Positions 18,269 through 24,229 of a DNA stretch of 29,148 nt are shown piece by piece. Both the position numbers and the translations under genes were made by a program. The notes beneath the pieces were generated by a model. The model was not told the origin of the DNA. It did not search any database and saw only the letters and a list, made by a program, of their open reading frames with translations. The stretch is from Candidatus Woesearchaeota archaeon (GTDB lineage: Archaea; Nanobdellota; Nanobdellia; SCGC-AAA011-G17; GW2011-AR17): assembly GCA_016211095.1 (NCBI GenBank), contig JACQSW010000090.1:1-29148 (forward strand), given 5' to 3'. The first letter of the stretch is position 1, and each line of letters opens with the position of its first letter.

Positions 18269-19900
18269 ATGGGGTTGGATATTGTTCTTGAAGCAATGGA
18301 TGAGGAGTTACATCGCTCTAAAAAATTAAAGATTGAGGGTTACAAGGAAAAGCCTTATTTTATTTCTTATTTAGCAAAAGAAATTGAAGAGGTTTCAATA
18401 GAGTCTAGCCACGGTTGCTTAGACACTTCTGAAGTTTGTAAATCTTTAGAGGTTATGGCAACTGTCCATGTTGGAAGCTATAAAGAGGATGGCGTGGGTA
18501 TAGCTTTTGTGAACCTTCCATTACCTGATTTAAAAAAAGGTGATAGGAAGAAAGTGAAGCAGGCTATTAAAACTAAGCTGTGGTCAATAACTGATTCGGC
18601 TTTTAAACAGGCGTTAACGGATTTTTTTTCAAAAAAAAGCCAAGATGTTGAGCGTGTTGTCGATGATAAAGCCAAAATAGCTGATTTTTCTAGAGAAGAT
18701 CCCCATAAGTACCTTGAAAAAGATAAAGAGCTAGTGATTGAAACAACAAAATGGCAGGAAATATTAAGAAAGACGAGTAATGAGATAATGGATTATAAAA
18801 ATGTTTTAGGGGGATCCGTTTCATTTTTAGCGAAAAAAGAAAAAAATTATTTTTTAAGCACCGAAGGAACAAGATTAAGGCATCAAAACATCTATTATAA
18901 TCTTCTTATGGAAGCAACAACGAGGGGCATAGACCTATTGACAAAAAAAGAAGACGGCTCGGTTTTGCTAAACGTAAAAACTTATGACATTGGAAAATAC
19001 AAAGATTTGCCAACCCCTAAACAATTGATAACAGATGTTGAGCAACTCGTAAATGAGCTTATGATGATGCGTGAAGCAGAAAGGTTAACTCCGGGGGTTT
19101 ATCCCGCTATAATATACCAGTGTGTGCACGGATTTTTGTGGCATGAAGTGATAGGTCATAGGCTTGAAAGCCAAAGTGTAAACGAAGCTGAACTTTCAAA
19201 CCCTTTTGAGGGGAGGTTGGGAGAAAAAATAACAAAAGAGTTTATAACGATAGAAATGGATCCGACAAAGAAAGAGTATAAAGGCAAATTTTTGAATGGC
19301 CAATACAAATTTGATGATGAGGGAGTTCCAGCGCAAAAAGTGACTCTAATAAAAAAGGGGGTTTTACAAAATTTCTTAACAACCCGAAAACCGATAAAAC
19401 CAATGAATGGGAAACAGTTCATAAAATCAAATGGCCATGGACGAATAGAGACTATAGGCTATGAGCCAGTTGCGAGAATGAGCACTCTTGTTATAAAATC
19501 AGATAACGAAGTCTCTTACGAAGAGCTAAAGAAAAAGTTGATTCATCTTTGCGTGCAACAAAAAAAGCCTTATGGCTTAATCATTTATGGGGCGTCTGGT
19601 GGGGAAACGGATCTTGTGAACGAATCTTTTGTGCTGTACCCCTCTGTGGCGTATAAAATTGATGCAAGGACAGGCAAAGAAACGCCTATAAGAGGATTTG
19701 AAATTAATGGTACGTCCCTATCGATATTGGAGAATATAGTTGCGACAGATAACAATTATGAGGTGGCTGGCGGTTATTGCGGGGCAGAATCAGGATTAGT
19801 TCCAACAGCTGAAGTTGCGCCTCGAGCTTTAATTAATAACTTAGAAGTAAAAAAGGCTTCGGAAGAGAAGAGTCGCGGGCCAATAATACCCCCTCCATAA
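18269..19900 (+). CDS. TldD/PmbA-family zinc metalloprotease (TldD-like, catalytic), 543 aa
   Basis: HEVIGHRLE (HExxGH), YKFDDEGVPAQ, LIKKGVLQNFLT, NGHGR, ARMSTL and GYCGAESGLVP. Confidence 0.9.
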   Translation: MGLDIVLEAMDEELHRSKKLKIEGYKEKPYFISYLAKEIEEVSIESSHGCLDTSEVCKSLEVMATVHVGSYKEDGVGIAFVNLPLPDLKKGDRKKVKQAIKTKLWSITDSAFKQALTDFFSKKSQDVERVVDDKAKIADFSREDPHKYLEKDKELVIETTKWQEILRKTSNEIMDYKNVLGGSVSFLAKKEKNYFLSTEGTRLRHQNIYYNLLMEATTRGIDLLTKKEDGSVLLNVKTYDIGKYKDLPTPKQLITDVEQLVNELMMMREAERLTPGVYPAIIYQCVHGFLWHEVIGHRLESQSVNEAELSNPFEGRLGEKITKEFITIEMDPTKKEYKGKFLNGQYKFDDEGVPAQKVTLIKKGVLQNFLTTRKPIKPMNGKQFIKSNGHGRIETIGYEPVARMSTLVIKSDNEVSYEELKKKLIHLCVQQKKPYGLIIYGASGGETDLVNESFVLYPSVAYKIDARTGKETPIRGFEINGTSLSILENIVATDNNYEVAGGYCGAESGLVPTAEVAPRALINNLEVKKASEEKSRGPIIPPP

Positions 19901-19922: not shown

Positions 19923-20267
19923 TTAATATTTGGTTATTCTTAAGTTGTTGCCTTCTTGTTTTACAACGCTGAAAACTCCGGCTACATGCTTGAAGTACCT
20001 CTTTGCCCTCCTTGCCTGCTCCTTTATTCTTCTTTTTGCTTTAGTTGTTGTGCTTGTGGTTACTTCAACAATATAGGGTTGGCCGTATGTATTCCACAAA
20101 ACGAGGTCCACTTGCCCTAATTTTCTTCCATCGCTGAGGTAGGGTACTTCTTCCTTGTAGGAGATTATTTTCTCTAATGCTAGAACACCAGGGTTGTCGA
20201 TGATGCTTCTTTTTAATGCTTCATGCTCCGCGAAGGAGCCGTTGCATTTATGCCGCGACCTATGCAT
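19923..20267 (-). CDS. Small PD-(D/E)xK-fold nuclease-like protein, 114 aa
   Basis: EEVPY...GQVDLVL...YIVEVTT...EQARRAKRYF follows the E...D-x(n)-E-x-K plus Q-xxx-Y layout, but has Thr at the Lys position. Confidence 0.55.
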   Translation of the reverse strand: MHRSRHKCNGSFAEHEALKRSIIDNPGVLALEKIISYKEEVPYLSDGRKLGQVDLVLWNTYGQPYIVEVTTSTTTKAKRRIKEQARRAKRYFKHVAGVFSVVKQEGNNLRITKY

Positions 20268-20271
20268 GAAT

Positions 20272-22806
20272 TTAAATTATTGAGTTGTTGAATAATTTTT
20301 CGGTGTTTACCTTAGGCTTTTCATTAGCCCATTTAGTTATGTATTCTACTGGGAATTCTATCGTTACTATTGGGCCTTTGGCTGGGCCATCAATTGGGAA
20401 GCCGTTAATCTTGAATCCCCTCATTGGTGAACCGTAATTAAGCATTTCTCCAAACTCGTTTCTGTCCATGAAACAGTAGCCTATGTCGTGTAAAACATTT
20501 TTTGAGGTTGTTTGCCCACCCATGTGGGTGTGCCCTGCCCTGTTGATAACGTATTTTTCTTTGAATTCTGGAAAGTCTTGGCCACGCCTGTCGAATGCTA
20601 ATCTTGTGGTTCTCGTTGGGTCCTTGGAGCTTTTTGAGCTACCTTGTTTGTGCCTGCAGTATTCTCCCCATAAGTAGTGGTCTTTTACGCCAAAAGTTCC
20701 TGAATAAACCCCTCCTTTTCCAAGAATTTTTGCCTGTATTTCTTCATTCGCAGCTTTTAGCCTTATCTTTAACTCTCTTGCAAGTTCTTCTGATGTGTTT
20801 TGCAATCCTTCAAATGTGTGGACGTTATGGTTTCCGTTTAGGATGTTTATTACTGGGCCGTAAAGCTTTGCATCTCGAGCCCTTTTTAGTGTTTTGGCCA
20901 ATAACTCTTCTATTAATGAGTCAAGGAAATCAAATCTTTGTTTTTGCGGCGAGATTATTCCGCTTCTTATTGTGTTACGCTTCAAGAGTTTTGTTAGCTC
21001 TTTTTGTTTCTTTTCAGGATTATCCTTGTACATTTCCATTATTCTTCCAATTTCTTTTTCTAATTGTGCAGGGTAGAGGTATTCTTCATGTTCCTCTTTT
21101 TCTGTGTCGTAGTTTTTTTCTTGGAGCTCATCCCCTAATGAGTTAATTTTTATTATTGGGGCGTTTATTGCGAGGACGAGTTCTTGAGCTACGGTGAACG
21201 CATATTTTATGTCAGACTCTGTTTCTATCACAGAGACATATTTTGAGCCATGATGTTGGTCAGATATGTTAAGTTCATACAACATTTTATGTTCTGTAAC
21301 TTTTTCTTTTTCGCTGAATGCATCATCGTTTGTTAAGAAATTGCTTGTTAATAGTTTTCTTTTCTGTATTCCAGTGATATATTCTAAGATTAGCGCTCCA
21401 GAATTAAAATCGTATTTTGTTGCGAGTTTAGTCATTTTGTTGCCGGCTACCCGAACCCTATCCTTTAGGATGTCTTCCAGGCTTTCCTCGTCTAGGCATG
21501 TAGGCAGTTGGATTAGGGTTATAGTTCCCTGTTTTTTATCAATGTAAGGGACTAAGTCTTGAGTGTATGTTGCGCTTAACCCGCCAGCAACAACTATATC
21601 GGGAGCTTCGCCCTTTGCTGACAAATTCATCCTTGTTACTTCAACCAATTTATCCATTAGGTTGTCTGCTATTTTGCTAGTCAGTTTATCCGTGCTCGCT
21701 ACAACCTTTATTATTTTGTTGCCGATTTTGATGTGGGCTTCTCCAGTTGAGATGACCTTGCTGTTTGGTATAGCTGATTCTATTTTGTCAATTATGTACC
21801 CTTTCATTTTTTCGTCCCCAAGCCTCATATATTCGTCGTTAGTGTTGCTCATCAGTACCCTTGTTTTGTATTCTTCTATGTCTGCTAGCTGTTGGACGAT
21901 TTTTTCTTTTGTTATCTCTAAACTTCTATGTTGCTTGATCTGTTTTTCAGAAACTTCTTCCTCGCTTTCTGATAGTTTGACAAATTCTTTTATTTGCTTG
22001 TTTACCCCTTTTAATTCAGATTTTAGTTCAGCGATTCTGACTCGTGTTGATTCTTTTTCTTTTGCTATTTCTATCCTTAATGCTTCTACGGTGTGCTGCC
22101 GTGTTAGCTCTTCTTCTACGTCGCCAAAAACTATGTAAACCTTGTTGTTAAAGAGGGGTTTTCCTTCTTTGTTTAGGAATAGTGGTCTTAGGGCGTCTTG
22201 TATAACCATCTCTAGCCTTTCCTTGAATGTTACGTAAATCGGCTTTTTTTCTTTTAGCAGCGTTTTAGGATCCCTTCCGGCAGCTTTTATTGCGTCAGGG
22301 TAGATTACTGTTTGTGAGTCGGTTTTTAGTTCTGTTGTTACTGCTCGGTCCACTTTGTATTTGGAGAATCGTGTGATGTCCATCCAGATGGTGTTGCCTG
22401 TTAGCACTATGCCGTCAACTTTGTCTGCTTCTGCATATCTTAGGAAGTTTCTGAATAGCTTCTTGTTCGTTTTTCCCCCAGCATAGATTGTGTTTGCAAA
22501 CCCTAGTTTGAAGTCTTCGCCGTCTTTCGAGGGGACTTCTGTTGGTTGGAGATAAGTTGATATTGGTGATTGATAAGTTGAGTTGGAAACTATTTCTTCT
22601 ATTGATGAGATGGCACTGTAAAGCGGTGTGCTTTCGTTGCCTATAGGTTCTATTTGCAGATGTTTTCCTGCTGTCTGCAACTTTTTCAGTTTTCTTGTTA
22701 TCGTGCTTTCAGGCAGGTTAAACCTTTTTGCCAATGCTTTTTTTGTAGAAGGCTTTTTTTTGAGGTATTCCCAAATTTTTATTTCATCTGGTGATAGTTC
22801 AATCAC
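20272..22806 (-). CDS. HTH + degenerate metallophosphoesterase + coiled coil + intact calcineurin-like metallophosphoesterase, 844 aa
   Basis: N-terminal wHTH (KKALAKRFNLPESTITRKLKKL). The C-terminal domain has all five motifs (SDQHHG, LGDE, GNHN, RHK, GHTH). The N-terminal copy has degenerate equivalents (NTIYAG, TGNT, FGDV, AGGLS). GTG start with a GGGGGG SD at 22814-22819. Confidence 0.8.
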   Translation of the reverse strand: MIELSPDEIKIWEYLKKKPSTKKALAKRFNLPESTITRKLKKLQTAGKHLQIEPIGNESTPLYSAISSIEEIVSNSTYQSPISTYLQPTEVPSKDGEDFKLGFANTIYAGGKTNKKLFRNFLRYAEADKVDGIVLTGNTIWMDITRFSKYKVDRAVTTELKTDSQTVIYPDAIKAAGRDPKTLLKEKKPIYVTFKERLEMVIQDALRPLFLNKEGKPLFNNKVYIVFGDVEEELTRQHTVEALRIEIAKEKESTRVRIAELKSELKGVNKQIKEFVKLSESEEEVSEKQIKQHRSLEITKEKIVQQLADIEEYKTRVLMSNTNDEYMRLGDEKMKGYIIDKIESAIPNSKVISTGEAHIKIGNKIIKVVASTDKLTSKIADNLMDKLVEVTRMNLSAKGEAPDIVVAGGLSATYTQDLVPYIDKKQGTITLIQLPTCLDEESLEDILKDRVRVAGNKMTKLATKYDFNSGALILEYITGIQKRKLLTSNFLTNDDAFSEKEKVTEHKMLYELNISDQHHGSKYVSVIETESDIKYAFTVAQELVLAINAPIIKINSLGDELQEKNYDTEKEEHEEYLYPAQLEKEIGRIMEMYKDNPEKKQKELTKLLKRNTIRSGIISPQKQRFDFLDSLIEELLAKTLKRARDAKLYGPVINILNGNHNVHTFEGLQNTSEELARELKIRLKAANEEIQAKILGKGGVYSGTFGVKDHYLWGEYCRHKQGSSKSSKDPTRTTRLAFDRRGQDFPEFKEKYVINRAGHTHMGGQTTSKNVLHDIGYCFMDRNEFGEMLNYGSPMRGFKINGFPIDGPAKGPIVTIEFPVEYITKWANEKPKVNTEKLFNNSII

Positions 22807-23094
22807 TCATAATCCCCCCTTTTTTGTCTTAAATTTTGTAAAATGATTAGCTGTATAAAAAGATTTGTATACAAAAAGAGTGATTTGAACAAGATACCGG
22901 TACAAAAATGAAAGAAATATGCTTTTGACCCCTTTTGTGAACCCATCTTCTTTTTTTGTAAAAGTCCACTTTTAGTTATTCCTAATCATTAATGCATATG
23001 AGAAGTATTTAAGCCTTGCTTTTTTTTTTGCAGTCTATTTCAGATTAACCGAATTTTGTCGAATAAGCTCCCAAAAATGCGTGTTAAGCAAACT

Positions 23095-23102
23095 TTTATA
23101 TA
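23095..23102 (+). promoter_or_regulatory. TATA box (TTTATATA) for the CoaD-HD gene
   Basis: Lies 26 nt before ATG 23129 and supports that start over 23081. Confidence 0.55.
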
Positions 23103-23128
23103 ATCCTTTTAAAATCCCTTGTCTCGAA

Positions 23129-24229
23129 ATGAATAAGGCTGTTTATGCGGGAAGTTTCGACCCAATAACAAATGGGCACTTATGGATGATTGAGCAGGGC
23201 GCAAAATTATTCGGCAAATTAGTCGTCGCTATTGGTGTAAACCCTGATAAGAAGCACGCATTTTCTTTAGATGAAAGATTAACGATGTTAAGAAAGACGA
23301 CGCGCAATTTTTCAAATGTAACTGTAGAGTCTTTTGAGAATAATTTTCTAGTGAATTATGCAAGTTCGGTTAATGCTCAATATGTCCTAAGGGGGATAAG
23401 GAGTGTTGGGGATTATGAATATGAACGCGAAATGAGATACATCAATACAGATTTAAATTCTGATATCACAACAATATTCCTGACGCCGCCAAGAGAAATA
23501 GCAGAGATTAGCTCAAGCTTAATCAAGGGTCTTGTCGGGCCGGAGGGATGGGAAGAAGTGATAGAAGGGTACATACCGAGAAATGTTTACAACAAGTTCC
23601 TCACAAAGTTCAATGGCCTGCATACTGGATGGAATTCTCTTTGGAGCGCGATAAATGCGAAAGGCAACTCTGAAAGTGTTTATAACGAAATTATAAATTT
23701 GTACGGAGAACCAGCTAGGGCTTATCACAATTTGGTGCACATTGCTCACGCTCTACGTGAATGCGCAACCATTAAAGGGTTGTTAACAAATCCAAGCCAA
23801 GTTGAGGCTGCAATCTGGTTTCACGACGCCGTTTACAACACATCCGCAAAAGACAATGAAGACAAGAGTGCACAGCTTGCCCAAAAAAAATTAAGCGAAG
23901 CAGGATTGCCCGAGCAGTTCGTGACGAATGTTTCTCAACTAATCCTCGCAACTAAACATACAAATATCCCGCAGGACAAAGATGCACAATACATCATCGA
24001 TATTGATTTGGCAATACTTGGAAAAACTGCAAAGGAATTTGACGAGTACGAACGAGACATAAGGGATGAGTATGCTTGGGTGCCAGAAGAACAATTCAAA
24101 CAGGGCAGGCGGGCAATCTTAAAATCTTTTCTCGAAAGACCATCTCTTTATACAACTGGCTTCTTTAAGGAAAAGTATGAAAAGGAAGCGAGAAAAAACC
24201 TTGAAAGGTCCATTACTCAATTAAGTTGA
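23129..24229 (+). CDS. coaD: Fusion of bacterial-type phosphopantetheine adenylyltransferase (CoaD) and an HD-superfamily phosphohydrolase (COG4339-like), 366 aa
   Basis: CoaD part: AVYAGSFDPITNGH, LRGIRSVGDYEYE, ISSSLIK. HD part: YHNLVHI, WFHDAVY, DIDLAILG, IRDEYAWVP...GRRAIL. Confidence 0.88.
   Translation: MNKAVYAGSFDPITNGHLWMIEQGAKLFGKLVVAIGVNPDKKHAFSLDERLTMLRKTTRNFSNVTVESFENNFLVNYASSVNAQYVLRGIRSVGDYEYEREMRYINTDLNSDITTIFLTPPREIAEISSSLIKGLVGPEGWEEVIEGYIPRNVYNKFLTKFNGLHTGWNSLWSAINAKGNSESVYNEIINLYGEPARAYHNLVHIAHALRECATIKGLLTNPSQVEAAIWFHDAVYNTSAKDNEDKSAQLAQKKLSEAGLPEQFVTNVSQLILATKHTNIPQDKDAQYIIDIDLAILGKTAKEFDEYERDIRDEYAWVPEEQFKQGRRAILKSFLERPSLYTTGFFKEKYEKEARKNLERSITQLS

What the first reader, a model, noticed from the sequence alone, without database searches (positions are those of the whole stretch)
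19923..22860. Candidate undescribed two-gene system: sensor/phosphoesterase plus PD-(D/E)xK-like nuclease
Seen: the 844-aa gene stops 4 nt before a 114-aa nuclease-fold ORF on the same strand. The pair has one promoter (TTTTATAC, 22853-22860, and a GGGGGG SD) and is bounded by a convergent and a divergent gene, so it is a self-contained cassette. The small protein has D...E-x-T instead of D...E-x-K. Established: large multidomain sensor plus small PD-(D/E)xK effector pairs, and calcineurin-like phosphoesterases, recur in prokaryotic antiviral and nucleotide-signalling systems. Inference: a new defence or DNA-end-processing module. This is my leading protein-coding candidate for a novel system here.
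Basis: inference. Interest (0 to 1): 0.82.

Follow-up and report, generated by a model that had tools for sequence, protein, structure and literature searches.

The report
Tandem phosphoesterase with small nuclease partner
A tiny symbiotic archaeon carries a conserved two-gene unit: an uncharacterised 844-residue protein (DNA-binding head, dead phosphoesterase domain, coiled-coil arm, intact Mre11-like phosphoesterase domain) and a small restriction-endonuclease-fold protein; it is probably a nucleic-acid-cutting machine, and nothing shows it is an antiviral defence system.

Summary
An 844-aa ORF (20272-22806, minus) ends 4 nt before a 114-aa ORF (19923-20267), between a convergent and a divergent gene.

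The large protein has four parts: wHTH, a histidine-less pseudo-metallophosphoesterase (MPE) domain, a ~115-residue coiled-coil hairpin inserted in it, and a C-terminal MPE domain. The C-terminal domain keeps all metal-ligand motifs (D516-x-H518, G558-D559, G658-N659-H660, H719, H759-x-H761). Pfam, NCBIfam, PADLOC and PDB sequence searches recognise neither MPE domain. Structure comparison does: Z 14 to PolD DP1 and polymerase B-subunits for the N domain, Z 12 to Mre11/SbcD for the C domain.

The small protein has the PD-(D/E)xK fold with D54 and E68. Thr replaces the motif Lys in all 18 close homologues.

The superfamily is small (259 clusters at 50% identity among 1.84 billion proteins). It occurs in DPANN archaea, with at least one CPR bacterium, and in about 5% of sampled phylum genomes. 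A sister family, undetectable by BLAST, occupies the same slot.

The Thr-type small gene was found only beside a large gene. The large gene often lacks it.

All contexts are housekeeping and none is a defence island.

Best reading: an accessory nucleic-acid phosphodiesterase module. Defence is unsupported. The scan's only other note (e1-5286795) covers this same stretch, not other DNA.

The parts
22853..22860 (-). TATA-like box TTTTATAC, 47 nt upstream of the GTG start; candidate archaeal promoter element
   Evidence: Read directly. Function not tested.
22809..22824 (-). Purine-rich leader carrying the run of six G (Shine-Dalgarno-like) just before the GTG start
   Evidence: Inference only.
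22609..22806 (-). Large protein residues 1-66: winged helix-turn-helix domain
   Evidence: Weak Pfam HTH hits in P0001 (E 0.004) and up to 4.9e-8 in 11 of 16 family members. PDB profile hit to AdcR/MarR, E 3e-5. Foldseek and VIA matches to ArsR/MarR wHTH, TM by target 0.55, Z 10.3.
21322..22524 (-). Large protein residues 95-495: pseudo-metallophosphoesterase domain (95-228 and 346-495), interrupted by the coiled coil
   Evidence: VIA-align Z 14.1 to PolD DP1 (5ihe_A), 13.8 to Pol delta p50 (3e0j_A), 13.4 to MJ0936 (1s3l_A), over model residues 67-495. No invariant His and no DxH, GNH or GHxH motif in alignment A7.
21772..22122 (-). Large protein residues 229-345: antiparallel coiled-coil hairpin inserted in the pseudo-MPE domain; its length varies between homologues
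   Evidence: AF2 helices 229-281, 287-319 and 324-345. Length variation in A1 columns 300-400. VIA matches to SMC coiled coil and helical hairpins. No CxxC hook at the apex (read).
20275..21294 (-). Large protein residues 505-844: intact metallophosphoesterase domain with a helical insert (about 579-645). Motifs: D516-x-H518, G558-D559, G658-N659-H660, H719, H759-x-H761, H773
   Evidence: Motifs are invariant in 16 family-A sequences. H518, G658-N659-H660, H719 and H761 are also invariant across families A and B. VIA-align Z 12.1 to human Mre11 (3t1i_A), 11.9 to Mre11-Rad50 (9bi4_B), 11.0 to SbcD (7dog_B), 11.6 to purple acid phosphatase.
19923..20267 (-). 114-aa PD-(D/E)xK-fold protein: H15-E16 in helix 1, D54 in strand 2, E68-V-T70 in strand 3, Q84 in helix 2
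   Evidence: AF2 pLDDT 88.7 with alpha-beta-beta-beta-alpha-beta-beta topology. Top matches are all PD-(D/E)xK nucleases: Foldseek PDB, VIA Z 7.3-7.9, AFDB E 5.6e-5, Atlas TM 0.66-0.71 to PDDEXK_1/PDDEXK_3 clusters. Motif conservation.

Best explanation
The locus encodes an accessory nucleic-acid phosphodiesterase module that is almost confined to ultra-small symbionts (DPANN archaea, with relatives in CPR bacteria).

The large protein is a single-chain pseudo-dimer of two metallophosphoesterase folds. The N-terminal fold has lost every metal ligand and carries a coiled-coil hairpin. The C-terminal, Mre11/SbcD-like fold keeps the full two-metal site. An N-terminal wHTH is attached.

Proposed mechanism (inferred, not shown):
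- The wHTH and the dead domain hold DNA, or a structured nucleic acid.
- The live domain hydrolyses phosphodiester bonds at ends or structures, without an ATPase partner.
- The coiled-coil arm mediates oligomerisation or partner binding.
- The co-transcribed small protein, RecB/Cas4-like in fold and with Lys replaced by Thr, is an optional second subunit that adds endonucleolytic or structure-recognising capacity.

The module is non-essential. It is inherited together as a unit, often lost, and its large gene has been replaced in situ by a very distant homologue.
For: Shown:
- MPE motifs I-V are intact and invariant in the C domain.
- Both domains have the MPE fold (Z 14.1, 13.8, 13.4 for the N domain; Z 12.1-10.5 to Mre11/SbcD for the C domain).
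- The N domain lacks any invariant His.
- A wHTH is present.
- The small protein has the PD-(D/E)xK fold, with E16, D54 and E68 invariant.
- Distant stand-alone homologues of the small protein carry the canonical E-V-K, so the lineage descends from ordinary nucleases.
- The pair recurs. All nine Thr-type small genes with readable context follow a large gene. The two proteins co-diverge (r = 0.84 over 28 comparisons of 8 loci).
- A K-type small gene lies directly upstream of a family-B large gene in G264.
- Families A and B are homologous over 645 columns (hhalign probability 98.7%) and occupy the same slot.
- DNA-repair genes are near neighbours in two independent contexts: XPF/ERCC4, and Nre plus an XPD-type helicase.

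Inferred: the substrate, the role of the arm, and the role of the small protein.
Against: - No sequence model recognises the MPE domains.
- The fold matches Mre11 no better than it matches purple acid phosphatase, GpdQ or Rv0805 (Z 11-12). A non-nuclease phosphoesterase is therefore not excluded.
- Catalytic loops of the model have pLDDT below 50.
- The motif Lys of the small protein is missing, so it may be inactive.
- The large gene works without the small one in many genomes.
- The genome already has canonical Mre11-Rad50 and Hjc, so no repair gap needs filling.
- The interface prediction gave no verdict.
Confidence: 0.5

Rival explanations
1. Antiviral or anti-plasmid defence system. The large protein recognises foreign DNA and degrades it, alone or with the PD-(D/E)xK partner as effector.
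For: - Patchy, accessory distribution: 15 of 300 phylum genomes and 5 of 14 in the window's own family.
- In-situ replacement of the large gene by a homologue of about 14% identity, while the small gene stays about 50% identical.
- Architecture-level look-alikes among phage proteins: an Atlas 678-aa Metallophos cluster that is 60% viral, TM 0.50/0.61, plus the feature hits.
- Nuclease pairs are common in defence (established knowledge).
Against: - No PADLOC model matches beyond the HTH.
- None of about a dozen independent neighbourhoods contains a recognisable defence gene. All are housekeeping.
- The gene keeps a fixed syntenic slot next to NT5C, a Fap7-like kinase, S10 and EF-1alpha. It is not in a variable island.
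- No relatives were found on IMG/VR viral contigs by the pattern scan.
- There is no sensor, ATPase or methylase component.
Confidence: 0.18
2. Scavenging enzyme. It degrades imported or host-derived nucleic acid to nucleotides or phosphate, for organisms that cannot make nucleotides de novo.
For: - Restricted to DPANN archaea and a CPR bacterium, which are reduced symbionts.
- Neighbours include an NT5C-type nucleotidase and a nucleotide-kinase-like P-loop protein, IMPDH in the CPR locus and NDK.
- An AbrB-PhoU protein lies next to the large gene in L085 and next to a distant small homologue in L043.
Against: - The P-loop neighbour looks like the universal Fap7/AK6 and belongs to an old S10/EF-1alpha cluster. 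Its adjacency may therefore be accidental.
- NT5C is absent from the window's own locus.
- Only about 5% of genomes carry the gene although nearly all of these organisms need salvage.
- A wHTH and a coiled-coil arm are unnecessary for bulk degradation.
Confidence: 0.15
3. Not a nuclease. Instead a wHTH-tethered phosphoesterase acting on a small molecule or a phosphoprotein (cyclic or linear nucleotide signal, Ap4A, Ser/Thr phosphatase), functioning as an enzyme-regulator. The small protein would be an unrelated or degenerate passenger.
For: - The C domain matches purple acid phosphatase, GpdQ, Rv0805 and SMPDL3B about as well as it matches Mre11 (Z 10.7-11.6).
- HTH-MPE fusions annotated as ApaH-type occur in phage clusters.
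- The small protein lacks the motif Lys.
Against: - The recurrent, co-diverging adjacency with a nuclease-fold protein occurs in three arrangements: family A plus T-type small, family B plus T-type small, and K-type small plus family B.
- The acidic catalytic residues of the small protein are invariant, which is unexpected for a passenger.
- DNA-repair neighbours are present.
Confidence: 0.15

Closest known systems
Mre11/SbcD nucleases (with Rad50/SbcC)
   Same: The C-terminal domain has the MPE fold with a complete two-metal motif set. Its best solved matches include human, archaeal, fungal and bacterial Mre11/SbcD (Z 10.5-12.1). Two MPE folds side by side recall the Mre11 dimer, and a long coiled coil recalls Rad50.
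   Different: - No sequence-level relation to Mre11.
- The two MPE folds are in one chain and one of them is dead.
- The coiled coil is an insertion in the dead domain, about 115 residues long, with no zinc hook.
- There is no ABC ATPase partner.
- The genome has its own canonical Mre11-Rad50 operon on contig C96.
PolD DP1 and eukaryotic DNA-polymerase B-subunits (MPE domains, inactive in the eukaryotic ones)
   Same: These are the best structural matches of the N-terminal domain (5ihe_A Z 14.1, 3e0j_A Z 13.8, 6p1h_B, 5vbn_A, 3flo_A). As in the eukaryotic B-subunits, the domain has lost its metal ligands and probably serves as a scaffold.
   Different: No sequence similarity. No polymerase partner lies in the neighbourhood. 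The domain carries a coiled-coil insertion and is fused to an active MPE domain and a wHTH.
RecB/AddB/Cas4-type PD-(D/E)xK nuclease domains (Pfam PDDEXK_1, PDDEXK_3) and archaeal Hjc
   Same: The small protein has the same core fold: Atlas TM 0.66-0.71, AddAB and SSO0001 Cas4 Z 7.7-7.8, Hjc Z 7.3. The acidic residues sit in the expected elements (E16, D54, E68).
   Different: - No sequence-level hit: best Pfam E 0.12 and no PDB hit.
- The motif Lys is Thr in all 18 close homologues.
- No Fe-S cysteines.
- At 114 aa it is a minimal domain.
- The genome has a separate canonical Hjc.
Phage HTH-metallophosphoesterase proteins (uncharacterised ESM-Atlas clusters, Uroviricota)
   Same: An HTH followed by MPE domain(s). 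One 678-aa cluster aligns over residues 4-837 (TM 0.50/0.61). Language-model feature scores are 0.93.
   Different: These are leads only. There is no sequence alignment and their function is unknown. No close relatives were found in IMG/VR.

Membership tests
Metallophosphoesterase (calcineurin-like) superfamily, C-terminal domain | Motifs DxH / GD / GNH(D/E) / H / GHxH that bind two metals | tested here: met
   D516-x-H518, G558-D559, G658-N659-H660, H719 and H759-x-H761 are invariant in 16 sequences. H518, GNH, H719 and H761 are also invariant across families A and B.
Metallophosphoesterase (calcineurin-like) superfamily, C-terminal domain | Four-layer alpha/beta-sandwich MPE fold | tested here: met
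   VIA-align Z 10.5-12.1 to Mre11, SbcD, purple acid phosphatase, GpdQ and Rv0805 over residues about 505-825. Catalytic loops have low pLDDT.
Metallophosphoesterase (calcineurin-like) superfamily, C-terminal domain | Match to the Pfam models PF00149 / PF12850 | tested here: not met
   No Metallophos hit at E <= 0.1 in any of the 27 scanned members of families A and B.
Metallophosphoesterase superfamily, N-terminal domain (as an active enzyme) | Metal-ligand motifs | tested here: not met
   The fold is MPE (Z 12.5-14.1), but alignment A7 has no invariant His and no DxH, GNH or GHxH motif. It is a pseudo-enzyme domain.
Mre11/SbcD family | Sequence-level homology, a capping domain, and partnership with a Rad50/SbcC ABC ATPase | tested here: not met
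   No PDB or HMM sequence hit. No ATPase gene is adjacent in any locus. Canonical Mre11-Rad50 is present elsewhere in the genome. The capping domain was not assessed.
PD-(D/E)xK nuclease superfamily (small protein) | alpha-beta-beta-beta-alpha-beta core fold | tested here: met
   AF2 topology. Nearly all top matches in four libraries are PD-(D/E)xK proteins.
PD-(D/E)xK nuclease superfamily (small protein) | Catalytic D ... (D/E)-x-K triad | tested here: not met
   D54 and E68 are invariant, but the Lys position is T70 in all 18 close homologues. Distant homologues have E-V-K. Activity therefore remains open; BamHI and BglII lack this Lys and are active (from memory, not checked here).
Known anti-phage defence systems (PADLOC-DB v2) | Match of either protein to a defence-system model | tested here: not met
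   Only the wHTH gives weak hits (E >= 4.6e-4), to CARF/Csa3 HTH regions. The small protein's best hit is E 0.007.
Defence-island resident | Enrichment of defence genes among neighbours of homologues | tested here: not met
   About a dozen independent contexts are all housekeeping. Only Pfam labels were used and no statistical test was run.

The most novel reading that the evidence does not exclude
An undescribed, ATPase-independent single-chain 'Mre11-like pseudo-dimer with its own coiled-coil arm', shared by DPANN archaea and CPR bacteria. It would work with a RecB/Cas4-like partner (Lys replaced by Thr) as a new kind of DNA-end or DNA-structure processing machine. Its use could be conflict with mobile DNA or handling of DNA taken up from hosts.
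Probability: 0.3. Interest if true: 0.7.

Novelty: new variant of a known kind. Interest (0 to 1): 0.55.

Why it matters
DPANN archaea and CPR bacteria are a large, mostly uncultured part of microbial diversity, and much of their small proteome is unannotated.

This work gives a domain-level reading to a superfamily of 800-1100-residue proteins that databases list as 'hypothetical' or mislabel: the sources name cluster members 'FliE', 'biotin operon repressor' and 'HTH domain-containing protein'. Both enzyme-like domains are metallophosphoesterase folds, one dead and one live, joined to a coiled-coil arm, with a recurrent nuclease-fold partner.

If the protein is a nuclease, it would be a compact alternative to Mre11-Rad50-type machines that needs no ATPase. 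It would also be a marker of gene sharing between the two groups of ultra-small symbionts.

The work also removes an over-reading: nothing here shows a defence system.

Tried and rejected
- Pfam, NCBIfam, PADLOC and PHROGs scans of both proteins gave only weak HTH hits. Pfam scans of all members of families A and B did the same.
- PDB sequence-profile searches of the whole protein, the C domain, the N domain and the small protein found nothing beyond wHTH and coiled-coil noise.
- Foldseek of the whole 844-aa model against PDB found only the wHTH. VIA-align was needed to see the MPE domains.
- hhalign of the two domains against the genome's own canonical MPE proteins gave nothing significant. 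The same held against the 249-aa MPE P0036.
- Complex prediction on large plus small gave no verdict (score 0.00). This counts neither for nor against binding.
- Pattern scans of IMG/VR with the C domain and with the small protein found no relatives.
- The idea that the pair replaces Mre11-Rad50 or Hjc was rejected, because the genome has both.
- The idea that the large gene is a conserved core gene, suggested at first by its housekeeping synteny, was rejected. Only about 5% of sampled phylum genomes carry it, and G301 lacks it at the syntenic site.
- The genes downstream of the CPR homologue are not relatives of the small protein.
- Two literature searches found no description of this family.
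Full report
**1. Observation**

- An 844-aa ORF (GTG at 22806, TAA at 20274-20272, minus strand) is followed after 4 nt by a 114-aa ORF (ATG 20267, stop at 19923).
- TTTTATAC lies at 22860-22853, and a run of six G lies just before the GTG.
- The pair sits between a convergent TldD/PmbA-like gene (18269-19900) and a divergent gene (23081-24229).
- The window belongs to a 0.93-Mb, 85%-complete genome of a DPANN archaeon. Homologues carry Woesearchaeota, Nanoarchaeota, Aenigmatarchaeota and Nanohaloarchaea labels.
- The rest of the window is housekeeping: an RNA-polymerase subunit H-like ORF and a Fap7-like P-loop kinase (read by eye from the translations) and tRNA-Asp.

**2. Both genes are real and conserved**

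The large protein has 15 homologues at 37-56% identity over its full length. The small one sits in an alignment of 18 sequences; the 17 others are 43-61% identical to it.

**3. What the large protein is**

No sequence library recognises anything but a weak N-terminal wHTH.

The alignment shows the classic metallophosphoesterase signature in the C-terminal third. D516-x-H518, G558-D559, G658-N659-H660, H719, H759-x-H761 and H773 are all invariant.

An AlphaFold2 model (pLDDT 78.5, pTM 0.77) was compared with solved structures.
- Foldseek saw only the wHTH.
- The exhaustive VIA-align search placed residues about 67-495 on PolD DP1 (Z 14.1), Pol delta p50 (13.8), MJ0936 (13.4), LpxH and the Pol epsilon/alpha B-subunits.
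- It placed residues about 505-825 on Mre11 from human, archaea, fungi and bacteria and on SbcD (Z 10.5-12.1). Purple acid phosphatase, GpdQ and Rv0805 scored about the same.

So there are two MPE folds. The N-terminal one has no invariant histidine and none of the motifs, which makes it a pseudo-enzyme domain. A hairpin of long helices (229-345) is inserted in it. The hairpin's length varies among homologues and it has no CxxC hook.

The architecture is therefore wHTH, then dead MPE with a coiled-coil arm, then live MPE. No sensor domain was found.

**4. What the small protein is**

The model (pLDDT 88.7) has alpha-beta-beta-beta-alpha-beta-beta topology. In four structure libraries almost all top matches are PD-(D/E)xK nucleases:
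- AddAB/AdnAB nuclease domains, Cas4, NucS, Bax1, Can2 and cap-snatching endonucleases in PDB (Foldseek E about 0.008);
- VIA Z 7.3-7.9, including Hjc;
- AFDB E 5.6e-5;
- Atlas TM 0.66-0.71 to PDDEXK_1 and PDDEXK_3 clusters.

Each single score is modest. The consistency of the matches is the argument.

E16, D54 and E68 are invariant, and the Lys position is Thr in all 18 sequences. More distant stand-alone homologues in other families of the phylum have E-V-K. The Thr form is thus a derived subfamily of ordinary nucleases.

**5. Co-occurrence**

Every Thr-type small gene whose context could be read lies directly after a large gene. The cases are the window, L001, L003, L008/G163 and L009, plus four more pairs inferred from shared contig lengths. 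Large and small proteins co-diverge (r = 0.84 over 8 loci), which shows co-inheritance but not binding.

The converse does not hold. The large gene lacks the small one in G303 (58% identical), G302, G179/P0016, P0012, P0013 and P0018. In G179 the small gene was not found anywhere in the genome. The small protein is therefore an optional partner.

**6. A hidden sister family**

In G163 the small gene (49% identical to the window's) follows a 1000-aa protein that BLASTP cannot relate to the window's large protein. This protein occupies the same slot, before NT5C, a P-loop kinase, S10 and EF-1alpha.
- Profile-profile comparison shows the two are homologous over 645 columns (probability 98.7%, E 1.5e-16).
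- They share the catalytic residues.
- In G264 an E-V-K-type small gene lies immediately upstream of a family-B gene.

Three arrangements thus link a small PD-(D/E)xK protein to this superfamily.

**7. Distribution**

A merged profile finds 259 clusters (at 50% identity) among 1.84 billion proteins, 209 of them at E <= 1e-10 and nearly all 800-1100 aa. The named ones are DPANN.

In 300 near-complete genomes of the phylum, 15 carry a full-length copy. Five of the 14 sampled from the window's own family do, and G301 lacks it at the syntenic site.

A full-length homologue exists in a CPR bacterium (Ca. Spechtbacterales; hhalign probability 99.9%), flanked by IMPDH and YceG. Two AFDB clusters are full-length structural matches at 17% identity. 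The ESM Atlas points to HTH-MPE proteins of phages, but the pattern scans found no close relative in IMG/VR.

**8. Context**

About a dozen independent neighbourhoods contain ribosomal proteins, EF-1alpha, tRNA synthetases, RNase P, NMD3, RNA-polymerase subunits, CCA-adding enzyme, NT5C, NDK, IMPDH and PLD-type proteins. Two contain DNA-repair genes: XPF, and Nre plus an XPD-type helicase. None contains a recognisable defence gene.

The genome has its own Mre11-Rad50 operon and Hjc, so the pair is an addition and not a replacement.

**9. Interpretation**

Shown:
- the domain architecture;
- an intact two-metal site in one of the two MPE folds;
- the nuclease fold of the partner, with the motif Lys lost;
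- recurrent but facultative pairing;
- accessory distribution in DPANN and CPR;
- a fixed housekeeping locus with in-situ displacement between distant homologues.

Inferred (confidence about 0.5): the substrate is nucleic acid. In this reading the wHTH and the dead domain position DNA, the live Mre11-like domain cuts it without an ATPase, and the small protein adds endonuclease or structure-recognition capacity.

Rivals:
- Defence (0.18). The patchiness and the displacement favour it. The contexts and the lack of any known component speak against it.
- Scavenging of nucleic acid for nucleotides or phosphate (0.15).
- A non-nuclease phosphoesterase-regulator (0.15).

The complex prediction returned no verdict.

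**10. Novelty**

The folds are known. The architecture, the pairing and the DPANN/CPR restriction are not described in the libraries or papers searched. I rate it a new variant of a known kind, of moderate interest. The scan's other note on this protein (e1-5286795) is the same stretch read again, and its domain reading agrees with mine.

Noticed in passing
L083:1393-4140 (Ca. Spechtbacterales MAG, CPR bacterium): A full-length 915-aa homologue of the archaeal large protein (hhalign probability 99.9%, 670 columns) sits in a bacterial context between IMPDH and YceG. This implies sharing of the family between DPANN archaea and CPR bacteria.
   Followed up: partly
L043:2956-5765 (G243) and L085:3945-8327: An AbrB/MazE-PhoU fusion protein lies divergently next to a distant E-V-K small homologue in L043, which also has a 249-aa Metallophos gene (phrog_7339, 'DNA repair exonuclease') about 670 nt downstream. 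The same kind of fusion protein lies next to a large tandem-MPE gene in L085. This may be a phosphate/nuclease theme.
   Followed up: no
window 18269-19900 (+): A 543-aa TldD/PmbA-like metallopeptidase (PF19289, E 1e-32) occupies the position where relatives have an NT5C-type nucleotidase, between the pair and the Fap7-like kinase.
   Followed up: partly
L015 (G258:C79:14148-16820) and G264:C22:70021-72543: The matches to the large-protein family in these two genomes each contain one in-frame stop (TAG and TAA respectively). This could mean pseudogenes, sequencing errors or recoding.
   Followed up: no
L084 and L085 (two Woesearchaeota lineages): A third subfamily of 1108-1120 aa sits in its own conserved slot: PLDc_2, (AbrB-PhoU), large gene, NMD3, RNA-polymerase subunits. 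One source annotates it as 'flagellar hook-basal body complex protein FliE', which is clearly a mislabel.
   Followed up: no
G006:C20:37348-37521: A wHTH hit lies inside an open frame of 4895 aa (one TAG) in another genome of the class: a giant protein.
   Followed up: no
G268:C24:20417-20776: A 739-aa ORF in a genome of the same family (genus g7, whose two other sampled genomes carry family B) gives only a weak match to the last 110 profile positions (E 2.3e-6). It may be a still more divergent or truncated relative.
   Followed up: no
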